DNA from: Candidatus Micrarchaeota archaeon | GTDB taxonomy: Archaea > Micrarchaeota > Micrarchaeia > Anstonellales > Bilamarchaeaceae | Direction of reading: 5' to 3' | NCBI GenBank assembly: GCA_043827025.1 | Contig: JBDRPL010000002.1 | Coordinates: 1-63,124 of the forward strand | DNA length: 63,124 nt | In this document: in pieces, positions 56,614-63,124 of the stretch | Layout of the letters: every line of letters begins with the position of its first letter | Position numbering within the stretch: the first letter of the stretch is position 1 | The notes under the pieces: model-generated | What the model was told of the DNA's origin: nothing | Database searches by the model: none | Seen by the model: the letters and a program-made list of their open reading frames with translations, nothing else | Position numbers and translations under genes: made by a program

Positions 56614-58920
56614 TCATATCCTCTCCACAGAAGTAGCCCCAAAATTGCCCTTGTCCCGATTAAGTTTATAACTGGAAGCGAATTCCGAACCCATCAAAGA
56701 TTCATCATGCGTAATGACAAATGTCTGTTTGACAACTTCAGGGACTTTATATTGCAAGGTCTGCGATAAGAGCTCTACTGCTTCCTTGTCTAGATTATGA
56801 GTGGGTTCGTCAAGTATAAGCCATGATAGATTTGGAGTTAGTACCATTGCAAGAGCCACTCTTAGCGTAAGTGCAGCACATGCCCTCTCTCCACCAGATG
56901 CAACGCTCTCCAAAGTCTTCCAGCTGTCGCTCATTATCTCGAACTGATAGTCTTTTTCACCTGCACTTAAGCGAAGGGCGCTGTAATCCTTGTAGGGATA
57001 AAAGATAGTCCAGATTTCGTTCATTGCTGAGTTTATTGCTTCGATTAATGAGGACCTGAGATTTGTCTGCGTCTCAATCAATGCAGTACGATAAAGGGAA
57101 AGGTCTTCGATCATCTTTCTGAGAGATTCAAGCTCTGTCTTAATATCTTCCTGGCCTTTGATGTCTTTTAGTATGAGTGCAAGGACATCAGATGCCATCT
57201 TCTGCCTGCTTAGGGAATTGGAAACTAGAGAATTGGTTTTCTCGATCTCGATCCTGACAGATTCAAGAGCTGTTCGGAGTTTCTCGAATTTTGATTCGTC
57301 GAACTGGATTTTGCCAAGACTCAGAATAATGTCATCAAGGGACATCTTCTCGAGTGACAATTTCTGCTTCTTATTAATCAATTTCTCTATGTCACTCATT
57401 TCCAGCACAAGCATCTGGACCCTGTTGTTCAATTCCGATATATCTTTCTCAATCTGGAGTCTTTCATTCCCAAGACATATGAGCGCCCTGCCCCGATCCT
57501 CTTTTTCTGCAATCAGTTTTGAAACATCAGTTGCCTCTGCCTTCAGTATATTGAATCGGTTTGCAAGCAGTTCCAGAGTCTTGATTTTTCTTGAAAGCTC
57601 TTCCAGTTGCTTTGATTTTTGAGGCAGTTCCGAATTGAGTTTGTGCAGCGCTTCTTTTGTTTCTGCAATCTTCTGGTCCTTATGGATCTTGAGATGCTGG
57701 ATCTTGTCTTCATTCAATTCGCTTTCGCACACAGGGCAGATGGAACTGCCTGGCTTCAGCTTTTCAGAAGAGTCCTGAAGCTCAAGCAATTGGTGTTCAA
57801 GGCTCTTTTTCTCGGATTTGGCAGAGATTGATGAGTTTTCAAGTTCCTTGTGCAGATTTACCAAATCTTCCAATGATTCTGCAGCCACTTTGACCTCTAT
57901 AATCTTCAGCTCTGCATTCACCTTTTCAGCAGTCTTTATCCTGGTGTCCAGCACCCCAGTCTCCTTTGAAACATTAGATTCATGTTTTGCAATATCCCTA
58001 AGCTTGGCAAGATAACTTTCCCTGCTTTTCTCGATATCGGATTTTGATTTTTTCAGATTTTCATAGACCTCAAGATTTGCCTCCTTGCCATTGATTTCTT
58101 TTTCTAAAGATTCAATTATTGCCTGTCTCTTTATCTTCTCCTTTGATAGCTGTTCGTATTCGTCTTTGGTTTTTTTCATCTCACTGAACTCTGCAACCAA
58201 TCTTGACGCCTCGGTCTTATGAGCTACTAGAACCTTGCTTGCCCGCTCGAAATCCGAAGTCGTTTTTACAACCTCCTGCTCTTTTTCAAGCCTGCTTTTC
58301 AGAAGAGATTGATATGTTTCAGAGTTCCATTTCGATTCAAGGAAAGATTGGTTGGACTTTAATCTATTAATAACTGAAACGATGTTGGAGCGTGCAGTCT
58401 CGAACTTGTCCAAGCCTAAAAGAAAGTCCATCTCGATCTTTCGTTTGGAAGGATCAAGAGTAAGAAAGTAGTCTATGTTGTTCTGTTCTGAGTAAATTGC
58501 CCTTGTGAAAAGATTATAATCGACTTGGAGAAGGTCTTCAACGTATTTTGTTACAGCTTTCGAGCCTTTTTCCATAAGCTGGCTGTTCTTGTAGATTAAA
58601 GCATTGGTTGAGGTTAAGGATTTGCCTTTCTCTATCTTGCGCTCTATCTTGTAGTTTTCATTGTTCCAAAGAAATTCAATTACTATGTTTGCATGATCCT
58701 CATTCAGCCTTATTATGTGCTCAAGCTTCAATTTTCTCCGTTCAAGTGCTGGAAAAGTTCCAAACAAGGCAAAGCTGATGCCATCTAAAATGGTTGATTT
58801 TCCGCTTCCCATCATGCCAATGAATAAGTTGGTTCCTTCCCTGAACTCGAACAGCGAATCTGAGTGGGAACGCCAGTTCTTGAGGTTGATGGAATTTATC
58901 ATTGAATCACTTAATGCCAT
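56614..58920 (-). CDS. rad50: Rad50-like SMC ATPase
   Basis: GMMGSGKS, central CPVC Zn hook, SGGE signature, LDEPT, ITHD. Confidence 0.9.
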   Translation of the reverse strand: MALSDSMINSINLKNWRSHSDSLFEFREGTNLFIGMMGSGKSTILDGISFALFGTFPALERRKLKLEHIIRLNEDHANIVIEFLWNNENYKIERKIEKGKSLTSTNALIYKNSQLMEKGSKAVTKYVEDLLQVDYNLFTRAIYSEQNNIDYFLTLDPSKRKIEMDFLLGLDKFETARSNIVSVINRLKSNQSFLESKWNSETYQSLLKSRLEKEQEVVKTTSDFERASKVLVAHKTEASRLVAEFSEMKKTKDEYEQLSKEKIKRQAIIESLEKEINGKEANLEVYENLKKSKSDIEKSRESYLAKLRDIAKHESNVSKETGVLDTRIKTAEKVNAELKIIEVKVAAESLEDLVNLHKELENSSISAKSEKKSLEHQLLELQDSSEKLKPGSSICPVCESELNEDKIQHLKIHKDQKIAETKEALHKLNSELPQKSKQLEELSRKIKTLELLANRFNILKAEATDVSKLIAEKEDRGRALICLGNERLQIEKDISELNNRVQMLVLEMSDIEKLINKKQKLSLEKMSLDDIILSLGKIQFDESKFEKLRTALESVRIEIEKTNSLVSNSLSRQKMASDVLALILKDIKGQEDIKTELESLRKMIEDLSLYRTALIETQTNLRSSLIEAINSAMNEIWTIFYPYKDYSALRLSAGEKDYQFEIMSDSWKTLESVASGGERACAALTLRVALAMVLTPNLSWLILDEPTHNLDKEAVELLSQTLQYKVPEVVKQTFVITHDESLMGSEFASSYKLNRDKGNFGATSVERI

Positions 58921-59034
58921 GCCGAAGGTATAGAAGCAGTAATTGGATTTGTTGAAGAGAGAATAAAAAACTACTGCCCCAACCAAAAGAAAAAGACATA
59001 AAAATAGTTGTGTTTAATAGAGATGTGTGATATT

Positions 59035-59742
59035 ATGGCAGTCAGAATCAGGTTAGATGAAAGGATTACAGCAGGCAAAATCCGATTGCAGGTAAGAGAA
59101 CCACTCGTCAGCATAGTTGACCCAATTCTTGATAGATCAGAAAAAATGAGAAATATAGTCAGCGGAATTCTTGGAAATAATTATAGCGGACTGATTGAAT
59201 TGACCCAAAGGGAAAATATCACAGTGGAAAAGGCAAAGGAACTTGTAGCTTTTGCCTATGAAAAGGCAACGGGAGAAAAACACTACTTTACTGCATTCAA
59301 AATAGCATCGAGATTTGAACTAGCTCCTGAAATTGTGATGGAAGCAATGGTAAATGACATGGCAATGACTATGGATGATACGGCATGGAGAGGAAGTACC
59401 AAAAGAATCACAACCACACACTTGGAAATCTTTGGTCTGAGACCTAGTGAAACTGAATTCAAACTTGCAGCCACTATTGCAAGAGACAGAAAAATAGATG
59501 AAGCGAAGAAGGAATGTGCTGAGACTTATCAAATAGGAAATGCAAGATGCGCAGGCGCTGCAGCACTTCTTGAAAGGGCGTATGGCTTGGAACCAAGGGT
59601 AGATTTAGAACTATATAGAGAAGCAGCGCAGGAAGGGATAACAAGATATGAAAATACGGACTCGCACACCCACTCAATCGCTGAAGCACTTGGAACAATG
59701 TTCGACCTTCCTGTTAAACCAGCAAGAAGAGGCCTTGCCTAA
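59035..59742 (+). CDS. Hypothetical orphan protein
   Basis: GTGAT SD then MAVRIRLDER; no recognised motif. Confidence 0.6.
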   Translation: MAVRIRLDERITAGKIRLQVREPLVSIVDPILDRSEKMRNIVSGILGNNYSGLIELTQRENITVEKAKELVAFAYEKATGEKHYFTAFKIASRFELAPEIVMEAMVNDMAMTMDDTAWRGSTKRITTTHLEIFGLRPSETEFKLAATIARDRKIDEAKKECAETYQIGNARCAGAAALLERAYGLEPRVDLELYREAAQEGITRYENTDSHTHSIAEALGTMFDLPVKPARRGLA

Positions 59743-59746
59743 TTTT

Positions 59747-60550
59747 TCAATTTTTTATTATCTTCTTATATGCCATGGATAATGCAAAGAATACTACCAG
59801 CGTCAGGACAATCGCGCCTCCTGCTGCCAAATCGAAATAGTATGCTGAAGATAGACCAATTATCACTGACAGAATCGAAAGCATTGCAGAATAAACCATC
59901 GCCTGCCTAAAGCTCTTGCAGAAGAGAAGCGCAATTGATGCAGGAATGACAATAAATGAAGATACGAGCAGTATTCCTACAATACGCATTGAAACAACTA
60001 CCGCAATTGCAGTGAGAAGAATGAGGATCGAATCTACTTTTTCAACAGGAATGCCGCTTGCTTTTGCTGATTCTTCATCGAAAGTTATGTAGAATAGCTC
60101 TTTGTAGAAAACAATTATGGCGATTATTGTAATTATACATAATGCTGCAATAAAGATAAGGTCAGTTTGGCTTACTGAAAGTATGCTTCCGAAAAGATAT
60201 GAGAATAGGTCCGCTGTGAATCCACTAGAAAGACTGATTACTACGACACCAAGGGCCAAACCAAATGAGAAGAAAATTGCAATGGCAGCATCTCCGTAGA
60301 CCTTCATTTTCCTTAATTTTTGAATGCCAAGCGCTGATAATACAGTAAAGATCAAAGAGGCAACCAGTGGATAAAAACCAAAGAACATCCCTGCTGCCAA
60401 ACCTCCGAAAGAGATGTGTGCCAATCCATCCCCAATCAAGGACATGCGCCTAAGCACAAGAAAAACTCCGAGGATTGAACATATTATTGCTATGAGTAGG
60501 CCTGCCAGAAACGCATTTTGCATGAACGAATATTTGAGTATTTCCAACAT
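59747..60550 (-). CDS. znuB: Zn/Mn ABC transporter permease
   Basis: GDGLAHISFGG, YLFGSIL and FDEESAKASG motifs. Confidence 0.92.
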   Translation of the reverse strand: MLEILKYSFMQNAFLAGLLIAIICSILGVFLVLRRMSLIGDGLAHISFGGLAAGMFFGFYPLVASLIFTVLSALGIQKLRKMKVYGDAAIAIFFSFGLALGVVVISLSSGFTADLFSYLFGSILSVSQTDLIFIAALCIITIIAIIVFYKELFYITFDEESAKASGIPVEKVDSILILLTAIAVVVSMRIVGILLVSSFIVIPASIALLFCKSFRQAMVYSAMLSILSVIIGLSSAYYFDLAAGGAIVLTLVVFFALSMAYKKIIKN

Positions 60551-60557
60551 ATGATCA

Positions 60558-61325
60558 CTAATGCCTATGAGTATGCGAATGTGAAACTCTCTTCATTACA
60601 TCTGGATAGGGACACATCAAATCCTCGTGCTTCAAACCTTTTGACACGTCATGAAGTATAAGTTTCTGGTTGATGCAGGCCAATTTGTTTACATGAGTGC
60701 TGACCATGCCCACGTCATGCGATACTAAAATACAGGTCAATCCCATTTTCTTGTTCAGACTATCAAGAATATCGTAGAACATTTTCTGAGAAGCCTCGTC
60801 AACTCCAACAGTTGGCTCATCCAAAAGCAATAATTCAGGTTCCCCTGCCAATGCCCTTGCTATGAAAACCCTTTGCTGCTGGCCACCGGATAAACTGCCG
60901 ATCATTGAATCCTTGTGTTCAAGCATTCCCACTAACTTCAATGACTTTTCGATTGCACCTAAGTCTGATTTTGAAAGTGGCTTGAAAAAACCAATCTTTG
61001 CAAAACGCCCCATACTTGCAACCTCGAAGACAGTTGCAGGGAAATTCTGGTCGAAATTGGTTGCCTTCTGGGGAACGTAGCCTACTCTATGTTTTTCATT
61101 GAAAGTCTTGCTGTCTTTTCCAAATATAATCAGTTGCCCTGAATCCGGCTTCAAAAGCCCCAGCATTATCTTCAACAAAGTTGTTTTTCCAGCTCCATTC
61201 GGGCCAATCATTCCAACAAAGTCGCCACGCATGACTTTCAGGTCAATATCTTTTAGGATCCTATGCTTGCCATAGCTGAAGCACACGTTTTTTAGCTCAA
61301 TAAGAACCTTAACATCCTTTGCCAA
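60558..61325 (-). CDS. znuC: Zn/Mn ABC transporter ATPase
   Basis: GPNGAGKT, LSGGQQQR, DEPT; His-rich tail. Confidence 0.92.
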   Translation of the reverse strand: MAKDVKVLIELKNVCFSYGKHRILKDIDLKVMRGDFVGMIGPNGAGKTTLLKIMLGLLKPDSGQLIIFGKDSKTFNEKHRVGYVPQKATNFDQNFPATVFEVASMGRFAKIGFFKPLSKSDLGAIEKSLKLVGMLEHKDSMIGSLSGGQQQRVFIARALAGEPELLLLDEPTVGVDEASQKMFYDILDSLNKKMGLTCILVSHDVGMVSTHVNKLACINQKLILHDVSKGLKHEDLMCPYPDVMKRVSHSHTHRH

Positions 61326-61329
61326 TTTT

Positions 61330-62214
61330 TCACCTGCAATTCTTTCCTATGTTCTGGAGATTATCTTCCATGAGCGATATATAATCCTTGCCCTGGGCTT
61401 TTTCATCATCTGTGATGCCATGAACTGAATTGAAAACCAATGTGTAACCGCCGAGCTCGTTTGCAATCAACTCTGCTGATTTTGGATTGATCAGGCTCTC
61501 AAAGAAAACTGCTTTTACCCCATTGGCCTTAGCTTGTTCAATTATATTTGCAAGATCTGCAGGAGAAGGTTCTGCCTCTGGATTGACCCCTGTTATTGCG
61601 ATTTGGGTGCAGCCATAGCGCTTGCAGAAATAAGCAAGGGTCGCATGGGTTATTAGTATGTTTTTGTTCGCGCAGTCTGCGAAGGCTGATTGAATCTCGA
61701 AATCCAGAGTATCCAATTTGGATTCGTAAATCAAAGCACTTTCTTCATAGAACTTCGTGTTTGAAGGGTCTTTTTGCACCAACGCATCTTTTATTGATTC
61801 GACCTGCTTCTTTGCATTCATCGGGTCAAGCCAAATATGCGGATCATTTTGTATCAGTTCAATGTTCCTACTTGTATCGACCAGTATCACATTTGAATCG
61901 TCCAAATTTTTCAGCAGATTCGGAAGCCAGGGCTCCATGTTCGCGCCATTGTAGATGAAGATGTCTGCATTCAGGATTCTCTTCATGTCATTCGGAGTTG
62001 GCTCGAATTCGTGCGGTTCAACTCCGTTTGGTATCAATGTCGTTATTTCTACTTTATCCTCACCAACGTTCTTTGTGAAATCGTAAAGCGGATAGAAGCT
62101 AACAACGACATTTATCTTTCCTGAATCGGATTGTGTTTGCTGTGTCTGCTCCTGCGTACAGCCGAAAAAGGCAAGGCAAAGAACTAGCAAGATTGCAGGA
62201 ATCATTCTCTTCAT
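61330..62214 (-). CDS. znuA: Zn/Mn ABC transporter substrate-binding lipoprotein
   Basis: EPHEFEP, DPHIWLDP and THA metal ligands; lipobox FFGC. Confidence 0.9.
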   Translation of the reverse strand: MKRMIPAILLVLCLAFFGCTQEQTQQTQSDSGKINVVVSFYPLYDFTKNVGEDKVEITTLIPNGVEPHEFEPTPNDMKRILNADIFIYNGANMEPWLPNLLKNLDDSNVILVDTSRNIELIQNDPHIWLDPMNAKKQVESIKDALVQKDPSNTKFYEESALIYESKLDTLDFEIQSAFADCANKNILITHATLAYFCKRYGCTQIAITGVNPEAEPSPADLANIIEQAKANGVKAVFFESLINPKSAELIANELGGYTLVFNSVHGITDDEKAQGKDYISLMEDNLQNIGKNCR

Positions 62215-62245
62215 AAGAAACTATCCGAATTAAGAATATTTATAT

Positions 62246-62264
62246 GTTAATGATTTTCATTATC
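62246..62264. promoter_or_regulatory. Fur/Zur box overlapping the znuA promoter
   Basis: Minus strand reads GATAATGAAAATCATTAAC, 17/19 to the classical Fur box GATAATGATAATCATTATC; abuts TATA (TATAAATA, 62237-62244, minus strand). Confidence 0.75.
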
Positions 62265-62308
62265 AATAAGAAAATGCATGAAATACGTATGAAATTGATG
62301 TGATTTTG

Positions 62309-62671
62309 ATGAAATCGAGAAATACGAAACAAAAGGAAACGATTGGATCGGTAATGGAAAGGTTCGATCACTTCTTCACTGCCGAAGAGCTATGCGAAAC
62401 AGTTAGAAAGAAGGATTCGAAGATCGGACAGGCGACAATCTACAGATTCTTGAAGCAGGAAATAAAGAACTCGAACCTAAACAACTATGTCTGCGGCAGA
62501 AAATCAGTTTATTCAAGAGGCTCAAACAACCACAACCACTTCACCTGTGAGAGATGCGGAAAGAAGAAACATTTCAGTTTGAAGAACATAGATTTTTTAC
62601 AGAAAGAAATCGGTGGAAAGGTGAAGACAGTACAGATAGATATACAGGGGATTTGTGAGGATTGTTGCTAG
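62309..62671 (+). CDS. Fur-family metal-sensing repressor (Zur-like)
   Basis: HFFTAEEL, ATIYRFL, HNHFTCERC and GICEDC motifs. Confidence 0.9.
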   Translation: MKSRNTKQKETIGSVMERFDHFFTAEELCETVRKKDSKIGQATIYRFLKQEIKNSNLNNYVCGRKSVYSRGSNNHNHFTCERCGKKKHFSLKNIDFLQKEIGGKVKTVQIDIQGICEDCC

Positions 62672-62708
62672 TTATTTGTTTATTAATTGTATTATTCAAA
62701 TGTTGTTA

Positions 62709-62843
62709 TACGATGATGATTACGGTGATCTCCGAGCCATTCCCTAAGCTATCTCGTTTGCGCAAGCAAACGGGACGCTTTTACCGAAAGGTAAAATGCG
62801 AAGCCACGGAGGAAGCAGTGACGATTGACGTGCGGTCTGAGTA
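62709..62843 (+). ncRNA. C/D-box guide sRNA with 82-nt structured insert between D' and C'
   Basis: C ATGATGA 62713-62719, 12-nt guide, D' CCGA 62732-62735, C' GTGACGA 62818-62824, 12-nt guide, D CTGA 62837-62840. Confidence 0.8.
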
Positions 62844-62854
62844 AAGCAAATGTC

Positions 62855-62979
62855 TTGGGTTTAGAGTCTTCAGTCTCGGCGGAAAAAGTTCGGCGTTTTG
62901 AGTCCAGAAGTGGCATAGGCGAAAAAGCGCATAGGCAGACCCAAGAGCTAAGTGCGTATAGTGTTTTGAGTCTTGAGTC
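62855..62979 (+). repeat. Short tandem heptamer repeats (TTGAGTC-like)
   Basis: TTGGGTT-TAGAGTC-TTCAGTC at 62855-62875, TTGAGTC at 62898, TTGAGTC-TTGAGTC at 62966-62979. Confidence 0.5.
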
Positions 62980-63124
62980 CTGCACGGATAGAACTGAAAT
63001 ACAAAAGCAACTCGCCCAACTTTGGCCAAACATCAAACGAGAACTTGACTTCATTGCCCGTTACACTGCAAAAGACAGACTAGTTGAAGCGATATCCATA
63101 TTTTCGGAAGCAAGAAAAAACAGA

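What the first reader, a model, noticed from the sequence alone, without database searches (positions are those of the whole stretch)
62709..62843. C/D-box guide sRNA with a large structured insert, targeting the 16S decoding site
Seen: canonical C/D and C'/D' boxes with exact 12-nt guides. The normally short D'-C' loop is 82 nt and holds two GNRA-capped hairpins (TCTCGTTTGC-GCAA-GCAAACGGGA; CGCTTTTACC-GAAA-GGTAAAATGCG). The D guide TTGACGTGCGGT is complementary to ACCGC(A)CGTCAA, the conserved 16S ACCGCCCGTCA, and the D+5 rule points to C1402 (E. coli numbering), a known 2'-O-methylation site. The single mismatch predicts A at 1403 in this organism. The D' guide (target AGATCACCGTAA) best resembles 23S helix 93 (AGACCGTCGTGA in typical archaea), which is tentative. 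The extra domain could be a protein-binding module or an inserted mini-element.
Basis: partly seen in the sequence, partly recalled or inferred. Interest (0 to 1): 0.75.

Follow-up and report, generated by a model that had tools for sequence, protein, structure and literature searches.

The report
Expanded guide RNA clamping 16S end
This small RNA gene of tiny archaea is a methylation-guide RNA whose two arms match the decoding site and the tail of the small ribosomal RNA; it carries an extra folded domain with a conserved loop that likely binds an unknown partner, and its end likely also serves as a landing site for small mobile DNA cassettes.

Summary
Real box C/D sRNA (62709-62843) of a Micrarchaeota-type archaeon; orthologues were found in 111 of 151 phylum genomes. 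The D guide targets 16S C1402 and co-varies with each genome's own 16S (94 genomes). All 49 genomes with the host's GC-rich target keep an internal mismatch, at +3, +5, +6 or +7 by lineage, which suggests selection for a weak, releasable duplex. The D' guide pairs with the anti-Shine-Dalgarno flank (C1533), not 23S helix 93, so the RNA straddles h44/h45 like Nanoarchaeum sR13. The 82-nt loop is a family-level domain: a covarying stem with an invariant CUAA/CAC internal loop at a fixed distance from the boxes (63 of 65 long loops). The two GNRA hairpins are this genome's own, replaceable apex. The D-guide end is duplicated behind 1.3-3 kb cassettes (Fic and other genes) in several genomes, like an attachment site. 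Expression and methylation are untested. The scan found this RNA family before in another genome (e1-5723621).

The parts
62709..62843 (+). Box C/D sRNA gene, 135 nt including a 3-bp terminal stem
   Evidence: covariance model R1 hit 62713-62840, 86.7 bits (the window's copy is in the model's training set)
62677..62696 (+). AT-rich TATA-like stretch, likely the sRNA's own promoter (inferred)
   Evidence: a loose TATA-like pattern 18-40 nt upstream of box C in 66 of 87 orthologues against 10% of random windows (intergenic AT-richness not controlled)
62713..62719 (+). Box C (ATGATGA)
   Evidence: RTGATGA in 84 of 88 orthologues
62720..62731 (+). D' guide; core GGTGATC pairs with 16S GAUCACC (1530-1536); +5 position = C1533
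62732..62735 (+). Box D' (CCGA)
   Evidence: CTGA 49, CCGA 26 of 88
62736..62817 (+). 82-nt D'-C' loop folded as one stem with a two-hairpin apex
62741..62750 (+). 5' strand of the conserved core: TCC-CTAA-GCT
62802..62810 (+). 3' strand of the conserved core: AGC-CAC-GGA
62752..62775 (+). Apical hairpin 1, GCAA loop (most long relatives have a GUCA(A) loop at this place)
62776..62800 (+). Apical hairpin 2, GAAA loop
62818..62824 (+). Box C' (GTGACGA)
62825..62836 (+). D guide to 16S 1398-1409; +5 = C1402 (Watson-Crick), +6 = U opposite C1403 (mismatch)
62837..62840 (+). Box D (CTGA)
62825..62857 (+). Block duplicated at G000:C21:635 (33 bp) and C21:2020 (17 bp); likely attachment-site core
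62841..62980 (+). Arm of 7-bp periodic repeats, 80% identical to the arm behind the C21:635 copy; likely the end of an integrated cassette
62300..62671 (+). Upstream neighbour: Fur-family regulator beside a ZnuA-type zinc uptake operon (context only)

Best explanation
It is a double-guide box C/D sRNA whose arms match the two sides of 16S helices 44-45 (the C1402 region and the anti-Shine-Dalgarno flank at C1533) and that likely works as a weak, releasable clamp on the 3' minor domain during small-subunit maturation, predicted to 2'-O-methylate C1402 and C1533 on the way, with an expanded loop whose conserved internal loop likely binds an unidentified partner. SHOWN: boxes, both complementarities, guide-16S covariation, the real mismatch, the covarying stem, and fibrillarin and Nop5 genes in the host. 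INFERRED: assembly with L7Ae/Nop5/fibrillarin; binding of both arms at once, which would place h44 and h45 beside the C'/D' end where the insert projects; selection against a full-strength duplex so that the RNP lets go. The apex above the CUAA/CAC loop is a tolerant expansion segment (4 to 108 nt) and is not the functional core. The domain is an accessory: 23 of 88 orthologues have loops of 32 nt or less and lack it. Separately, at DNA level, the D-guide/box D end likely serves as an attachment core for small cassettes that carry no integrase of their own.
For: Guide-target covariation in 94 genomes: position 1400 G-C 78 / A-U 7; 1404 G-C 46 / A-U 35; 1405 C-G 47 / U-A 13; 1406 A-U 59 / G-C 34 / C-G 1. 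All 49 genomes with the host's target sequence have an internal mismatch (+5 in 19, +6 in 24, +7 in 5, +3 in 1), costing 6-9 kcal/mol against the perfect 9-bp duplex. D' core complementary to the 16S 3' end over 7-9 contiguous bp in 85 of 88 order-level sequences, and none pairs all ten positions; guides that reach further along the tail mostly carry an internal mismatch. Precedent: N. equitans sR13 guides A1408 and A1534, Cm1533 was measured in I. hospitalis with no known guide, and Cm1402 was measured in N. equitans (PMC5389701, passages) and P. abyssi (PMC7005279, passages). Mismatches at +6 to +8 did not lower activity in a hemi-complex assay (PMC1635284, passages). Insert: CUAA/CAC core in 63 of 65 loops of 33 nt or more, starting 8-9 nt after box D' in all 63; 96.2% of cells paired, 0 of 500 shuffles reach it, flanking pair C-G 42 / U-A 10. 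Fibrillarin and Nop genes present.
Against: No expression or methylation data. The D' duplex is only 7-8 bp in most genomes, at or under the 8-10 bp quoted as optimal (PMC7089733, passage). The weak-duplex rule is not universal: 29 of 36 genomes whose 16S has U1404 have mismatch-free guides at about -13 to -17 kcal/mol. A 23S site could explain the U at +6: it pairs 9 nt at -14.6 against -16.7 for 16S and is kept in 22 of 30 relatives, though with G-U at +5. Two of 10 genomes scanned (G030, G060) have a 23S site of about -16 kcal/mol. Genomes are related, so the counts are not independent events, and one genus supplies many of the long forms. KsgA/RsmA is present in 163 of 176 order genomes, so this RNA does not replace it. 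The hemi-complex used for the mismatch data is itself non-specific. No partner for the CUAA/CAC loop was identified.
Confidence: 0.68

Rival explanations
1. Ordinary methylation guide with a neutral expansion: the RNA simply guides Cm1402 and Cm1533, the mismatch is tolerated drift, and the insert is structural filler whose core is conserved only by descent.
For: 23 of 88 orthologues lack the domain, including G001 of the same genus. The only other C/D candidate in G000 also has a long, 38-nt loop. Halobacterial sRNAs have 19-21 nt D'-C' regions (PMC2584109, passage). +6 mismatches are tolerated in vitro.
Against: The loop letters CUAA/CAC are invariant while the flanking pairs co-vary and the apex turns over, and the distance from box D' is fixed at 8-9 nt. 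The mismatch moves between positions but is never absent in 49 genomes with the strong target, and in 19 it sits at +5, which is held to abolish methylation (PMC6009581 passage).
Confidence: 0.2
2. Non-methylating chaperone or anti-SD mask: the RNP binds but leaves C1402 (and perhaps C1533) unmodified, and its role is to keep immature or idle 30S subunits from engaging mRNA.
For: A opposite C1402 at +5 in 20 of 94 genomes; A opposite C1533 at +5 in 16 sequences of families f13 and f14; the D' guide is itself a Shine-Dalgarno-like sequence; conserved +5 mismatches are reported in Pyrobaculum.
Against: In this window and in 74 of 94 genomes +5 is Watson-Crick at C1402, and both methylations are measured in other archaea. 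This reading differs from the best one only in whether methyl groups are added here.
Confidence: 0.15
3. Dual-target D guide: U at +6 is kept because the guide also pairs with a 23S site (host position about 1048-1056), linking the two subunit RNAs.
For: 9-nt duplex, -14.6 kcal/mol, in which the +6 U pairs with A; site exact in 22 of 30 relatives; cross-subunit guides exist (Neq sR20).
Against: +5 is G-U; the site is changed in 8 of 30 relatives while this part of the guide is nearly invariant; it cannot explain A at +6 or the +5, +7 and +3 mismatches; in 6 of 10 genomes of other lineages the 16S site was the best hit.
Confidence: 0.1
4. The insert recruits a second modifying enzyme to helix 45, as yeast snR45 or human SNORD13 recruit the ac4C writer (recalled), or is a fused H/ACA pocket.
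For: The D' target abuts helix 45, whose CCG is acetylated in P. abyssi, where the authors proposed RNA guides.
Against: Nat10/TmcA domain PF13718 found in 0 of 176 order genomes while controls rang; no pocket-type target for CUAA/CAC in host 16S or 23S; the flanks co-vary with each other, not with rRNA.
Confidence: 0.05
5. The insert is a mobile mini-element that landed in the sRNA loop.
For: This genome is rich in small palindromic modules (earlier notes); extra hairpin pairs in L210, L222, L238, L017, L234 and L212 resemble such modules by eye.
Against: The G000 loop has no second copy in its genome and no look-alike in the loci held; the core is at one position in 63 orthologues; no target duplication is seen around the loop.
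Confidence: 0.07

Closest known systems
Nanoarchaeum equitans C/D sRNA sR13 (Seistrup et al., PMC5389701; passages seen)
   Same: One sRNA pairs with the h44 5' strand and with the anti-SD segment, spanning h44/h45; proposed to delay folding and act as a maturation checkpoint.
   Different: Targets are A1408/A1534 there and C1402/C1533 here, on swapped boxes. That host lacks RsmA; 163 of 176 genomes here have it. No long structured loop or conserved mismatch was described in the passages seen.
C1402 guides: yeast snR70 and human SNORD43 (names recalled); unnamed archaeal guides found here in Thermoproteota, Iainarchaeota, Thermoplasmata, Undinarchaeota and others
   Same: D guide to the same universally modified nucleotide (Cm1376 P. 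abyssi, Cm1639 yeast, Cm1703 human; PMC7005279 Table 4).
   Different: 29 of 31 such archaeal guides have G at +6 and unrelated D' guides with short loops (the search fixed +5 and +7 and their own 16S was not checked).
Halobacterial C/D sRNAs with longer D'-C' regions (PMC2584109; passage seen)
   Same: Extended region between D' and C'.
   Different: 19-21 nt there; 33-139 nt here, with a sequence-invariant internal loop and a branched apex.
tRNA-targeting archaeal integrative elements (review PMC8371274; passages seen)
   Same: Duplication of the 3' end of a stable-RNA gene on the far side of cargo, with the gene left intact.
   Different: The target is a C/D sRNA (the term sRNA occurs 0 times in that review's text); cassettes are 1.3-3 kb and no integrase ORF was recognised in them; the recombinase is unknown.
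MITE-like C/D sRNAs of Pyrobaculum calidifontis (PMC6009581; passages seen)
   Same: Link between C/D sRNAs and mobile DNA.
   Different: Those are whole sRNA-like copies with terminal inverted repeats and degenerate guides; here there is one intact conserved gene plus partial 3' copies.

Membership tests
Archaeal box C/D sRNA | Boxes C, D', C', D in order, able to form K-turn and K-loop | tested here: met
Archaeal box C/D sRNA | Guides of about 10-12 nt before D and D' | tested here: met
   12 nt each
Archaeal box C/D sRNA | Guide complementary to host rRNA with a Watson-Crick pair at +5 | tested here: met
   D: 11 of 12 positions, G-C1402; D': 8 bp, G-C1533; covariation
Archaeal box C/D sRNA | Duplex of 9 bp or more without interruption | tested here: not met
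   D has a mismatch at +6 and D' has 8 bp; published predictions allow one mismatch and relax length for double guides (PMC4644070)
Archaeal box C/D sRNA | Host encodes fibrillarin and Nop5 | tested here: met
   L7Ae was not searched
Archaeal box C/D sRNA | Short D'-C' loop (4-10 nt in most orders) | tested here: not met
   82 nt; a typical rather than defining trait; short-loop orthologues exist
Archaeal box C/D sRNA | Expressed, bound by core proteins, directs 2'-O-methylation | not testable with these tools
   needs RNA-seq, RIP and RiboMeth-seq
RsmA-substituting sRNA (Neq sR13 type) | One sRNA spanning h44 and the anti-SD | tested here: met
RsmA-substituting sRNA (Neq sR13 type) | Host lacks RsmA/KsgA | tested here: not met
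   PF00398 in G000 and 163 of 176 genomes
ac4C guide (snR45/SNORD13 type) | Host encodes Nat10/TmcA | tested here: not met
   0 of 176
Fused C/D-H/ACA guide | Internal-loop strands pair on both sides of a target uridine | tested here: not met
   no such site in host 16S or 23S; tRNAs and 5S not tested
11-nt GAAA tetraloop receptor (recalled motif) | 3x2 loop closed by two C-G pairs next to the UAA strand | tested here: not met
   the C-G/U-A covariation (42/10) sets a register one base away, giving a 4x3 loop
Attachment site of an integrative element | Direct duplication of the gene's 3' end flanking cargo | tested here: met
   15-33 bp in 7 genomes that hold both a full and a partial copy; same-contig cargo in G008, G140, G141
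Attachment site of an integrative element | Cognate integrase and excised circle | tested here: inconclusive
   3 PF00589 genes in G000, all on other contigs; no circle data

The most novel reading that the evidence does not exclude
A phylum-wide RNA clamp on the 16S 3' minor domain whose pairing is tuned to be imperfect (one mismatch relocated among lineages, even at the methylation position), so that its main job is timing the folding of the decoding site and masking the anti-Shine-Dalgarno; in one family it has gained a new RNA module (CUAA/CAC loop) that docks helix 45 or a maturation factor, and the same guide sequence doubles as a chromosomal landing site for integrase-less Fic-carrying cassettes.
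Probability: 0.3. Interest if true: 0.78.

Novelty: new variant of a known kind. Interest (0 to 1): 0.52.

Why it matters
Archaeal guides are said to be rarely conserved beyond a genus (PMC6009581, passage), yet this one is found across a phylum and co-varies with its target. It supplies a candidate guide type for Cm1533 and Cm1402, sites measured in Ignicoccus and Nanoarchaeum without a known guide. The moving mismatch makes an old question directly testable: whether C/D RNAs are kept for the methyl group or for the pairing. The CUAA/CAC loop is a candidate new RNA motif with natural minimal (33-nt) and absent versions for comparison. An sRNA used as an integration site would extend the known tRNA-centred rule.

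Tried and rejected
Rfam at gathering and E-value thresholds: no family. A1403 in the host or order: refuted. 23S helix 93 as D' target: refuted. A second GATCACC in host 23S (position 956): exact in only 2 of 30 genomes. ac4C guide, H/ACA pocket, 11-nt receptor and RsmA substitute: see membership tests. An early idea that the D guide is always mismatched was too strong: families f13 and f14 mostly pair fully on a changed target. The GUCA loop of long relatives is complementary to the guide's 5' half, but its GUCC variants come with an unchanged guide, so a pseudoknot has no covariation support. Expression: no RNA holder was listed and nothing from three same-study RNA runs was laid on the stretch; this says nothing about expression. 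The sigma-70 promoter and terminator scan is not suited to archaea. Literature searches listed no paper on Micrarchaeota C/D sRNAs, on this motif, or on an sRNA attachment site; most subscription papers and all supplements were not seen, and supplementary sRNA tables of PMC4644070, PMC6009581 and PMC5389701 may hold related guides. Rows left out: bacterial and other chance hits; three order-level pattern hits without sRNA context or not parsed (G067, G073, G146); extra hits in G112, G114 and G131, two of them with G at +6, were not fetched; 17 of 111 model hits had no own 16S motif and were left out; three rows (G174, G196, G205) are mis-parsed or atypical.

Full report
OBSERVATION. The described element is in the sequence (coordinates fixed): box C 62713-19, D' guide 62720-31, box D' 62732-35, an 82-nt loop, box C' 62818-24, D guide 62825-36, box D 62837-40, with a 3-bp terminal stem. 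The loop folds far better than shuffles (z -4.49). The window is contig C2 of G000, a 1.33-Mb archaeal genome with one 16S and one 23S gene, fibrillarin and Nop5. A scan of the whole genome for C/D architecture with rRNA-matching guides found this element and one other, and none in three shuffled genomes. Rfam has no matching family. Named records that carry the same RNA are mostly Micrarchaeota (Bilamarchaeaceae, Anstonellaceae and unclassified).

DISTRIBUTION. A pattern for the D guide and box D matched 94 of 176 genomes of the order. From all loci held I parsed 88 distinct full sRNAs. A covariance model built on 52 of them matched 111 of 151 genomes drawn across the phylum, one hit each (the sample includes G195, flagged unpublished, which had no hit). 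Six of these 111 (families f16, f17, f21, f23) share the D guide but have unrelated D' guides.

D GUIDE. It pairs with host 16S at 11 of 12 positions, with G opposite C1402 at +5 and U opposite C1403 at +6. The two co-vary: 1400 G-C 78 / A-U 7, 1404 G-C 46 / A-U 35, 1405 C-G 47 / U-A 13 / U-G 34, 1406 A-U 59 / G-C 34 / C-G 1. This establishes the target. All 49 genomes with the host's target sequence have an internal mismatch: +5 in 19, +6 in 24, +7 in 5, +3 in 1. Within family f1 alone it sits at +5, +6 or +7. It costs 6-9 kcal/mol against the perfect 9-bp duplex. Against a strict rule: of 36 genomes whose 16S has U1404, 29 are mismatch-free, and 2 of the remaining 9 genomes are too. Outside Micrarchaeota, 29 of 31 archaeal guides to this site have G at +6 (+5 and +7 were fixed by the search and their 16S was not checked). 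A second target could explain some mismatches. A 23S site pairs 9 nt with the host guide (-14.6 against -16.7 kcal/mol) and is exact in 22 of 30 genomes, but has G-U at +5. In 10 genomes of other lineages the 16S site was the best hit in 6; G030 and G060 have a 23S site of similar strength (their 16S was not in that scan), and G043 and G178 gave nothing strong. Cm1402 is measured in P. abyssi (PMC7005279, passages) and N. equitans (PMC5389701, passages). Mismatches at +6 to +8 did not reduce activity in a hemi-complex assay, whereas +3 to +5 did (PMC1635284, passages).

D' GUIDE. Its invariant core GGTGATC is complementary to GAUCACC at the 16S 3' end. By the numbering given in PMC5389701, +5 is C1533. 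The helix-93 idea gives -5.3 against -12.6 kcal/mol, and a second GATCACC in host 23S is exact in only 2 of 30 genomes. The 16S tail is essentially invariant in the rows shown (46 rows were not listed). Of 88 order-level guides 57 pair 8 positions, 21 pair 7, and none pairs all ten; phylum-level guides that reach further mostly carry an internal mismatch, in 16 cases at +5. N. equitans sR13 has the same span (A1408 and A1534) and was proposed as a folding checkpoint; Cm1533 was found in I. hospitalis with an unknown guide. Unlike N. equitans, 163 of 176 genomes here keep RsmA/KsgA.

INSERT. Loop length runs from 3 to 139 nt. The 23 loops of 32 nt or less are plain loops or hairpins. Of the 65 longer ones, 63 contain CTAAGC...GCCAC, starting 8-9 nt after box D' in all 63 and ending 10-12 nt before box C' in 56. 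On a 52-sequence alignment the named structure is 96.2% paired, above all 500 shuffles and all slid controls; the pair under the loop is C-G 42 / U-A 10 and the next-but-one G-C 28 / U-A 16 / G-U 6 / A-U 2 (relatedness is not removed by the shuffle). The result is a 4x3 internal loop, CUAA/CAC, invariant in letters between co-varying stems. Above it the apex may be a tetraloop (33-nt forms), a three-way junction with a GUCA(A) or GUCC loop (most long forms) or larger. In G000 the apex is again two hairpins, but with unrelated sequence found nowhere else in G000 or the loci held. The region between D' and C' is 4-10 nt in most archaeal orders and 19-21 nt in Halobacteria (PMC2584109, passage). 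I could not assign the loop to a known motif (one search listed no paper; an 11-nt receptor reading, recalled, is excluded by the covariation register). An ac4C-guide role is unlikely (Nat10/TmcA domain 0 of 176), as is an H/ACA pocket. By geometry (inference), both h44 and h45 would lie at the C'/D' end of the bound RNP, next to this stem.

DNA-LEVEL USE. The D guide and box D recur at G000:C21:635 and C21:2020 without the rest of the RNA. A Fic gene lies between them. Partial copies also occur in G008, G107, G140, G141, G120, G012, G138, G160 and G005. In the 7 genomes with a matching full copy the identical block is 15-33 bp (G107 differs at +6). Cargo between copies is 1.3-3.1 kb; Fic was confirmed for G000 and G008, other ORFs were judged by eye. 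Arms of 7-bp periodic repeats point inward on either side of many copies: three or more units per 100 nt occur in 46 of 20000 random windows, behind 9 of 84 full copies, and before 9 of 13 partial copies. The same repeats flank several tRNA-like ends in G000. The three tyrosine recombinase genes of G000 are on other contigs. That C2 continues into C21 is inferred, not shown. A review of archaeal tyrosine recombinases (PMC8371274, passages) lists tRNA, intergenic and protein-gene targets and does not contain the term sRNA. Earlier scan notes describe hairpin cassettes duplicating tRNA ends in this genome; none describes this site.

EXPRESSION. Not shown; no data were available (see Tried and rejected).

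VERDICT. A genuine, phylum-conserved double-guide C/D sRNA that spans 16S h44/h45, with a family-specific structured domain and imperfect guides. It is a new variant of a known kind. The scan reported the same RNA family from another genome (e1-5723621; an unchecked AI note, seen only after my own reading was set down). Papers were seen as passages, one named section (PMC7994747, section 4 part 1) or search listings; no supplement was read.

Noticed in passing
G000:C9:68568 (- strand): Second C/D sRNA candidate with guides matching host 23S near positions 2607 and 2559; its D'-C' loop is also long (38 nt, hairpin).
   Followed up: partly
window 62841-62980; G000:C21:501-790 and 1806-2036; C5:42111, C25:57243, C32:53449, C19:1864: 7-bp periodic repeats in inverted orientation around the duplicated core and beside several tRNA-like ends; one set lies at the start of a tyrosine recombinase ORF (L349).
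   Followed up: partly
L033:834-1808, L026:1705-2691, L309, L305: Fic-domain genes (Pfam-confirmed for the first two) recur as cargo between duplicated sRNA ends; related-looking ORFs occur in tandem in G120.
   Followed up: partly
L020:1508-1555, L099:401-448: In genus g31 the D' guide is replaced by one that could pair 7 nt with 16S 1493-1499, the partner strand of C1402 in helix 44.
   Followed up: no
L012, L258, L260 and other long forms: A GUCA(A) hairpin loop is conserved in most long inserts; it copies 16S 1405-1408 and is complementary to the 5' half of the D guide. G000 lacks it.
   Followed up: partly
L016:96-222, L170:1369-1522, L440, L444, L452, L462: Long D'-C' loops without the CUAA/CAC motif, showing independent expansions of the same loop.
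   Followed up: no
phylum families f13 and f14: The normally invariant 16S 1400-1406 segment varies (U1400, U1404, A1405, C1406 or G1406).
   Followed up: partly
L149 / L189: A full copy with the motif sits in a record labelled Pirellulales, probably a mis-binned archaeal contig.
   Followed up: no
G155, G006, G027 (genus g6): No KsgA match in any of the three genomes, two of which carry the sRNA with the motif; may be a lineage that lost KsgA.
   Followed up: no
G007, G158 16S 3' end: Helix 45 appears interrupted by an insertion just after the 5' strand, probably an rRNA intron.
   Followed up: no
window 56614-62671; L331, L335, L313: A Rad50/SMC-like ORF and a zinc ABC transporter operon lie near the sRNA here and next to the sRNA or its partial copy in some relatives.
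   Followed up: no
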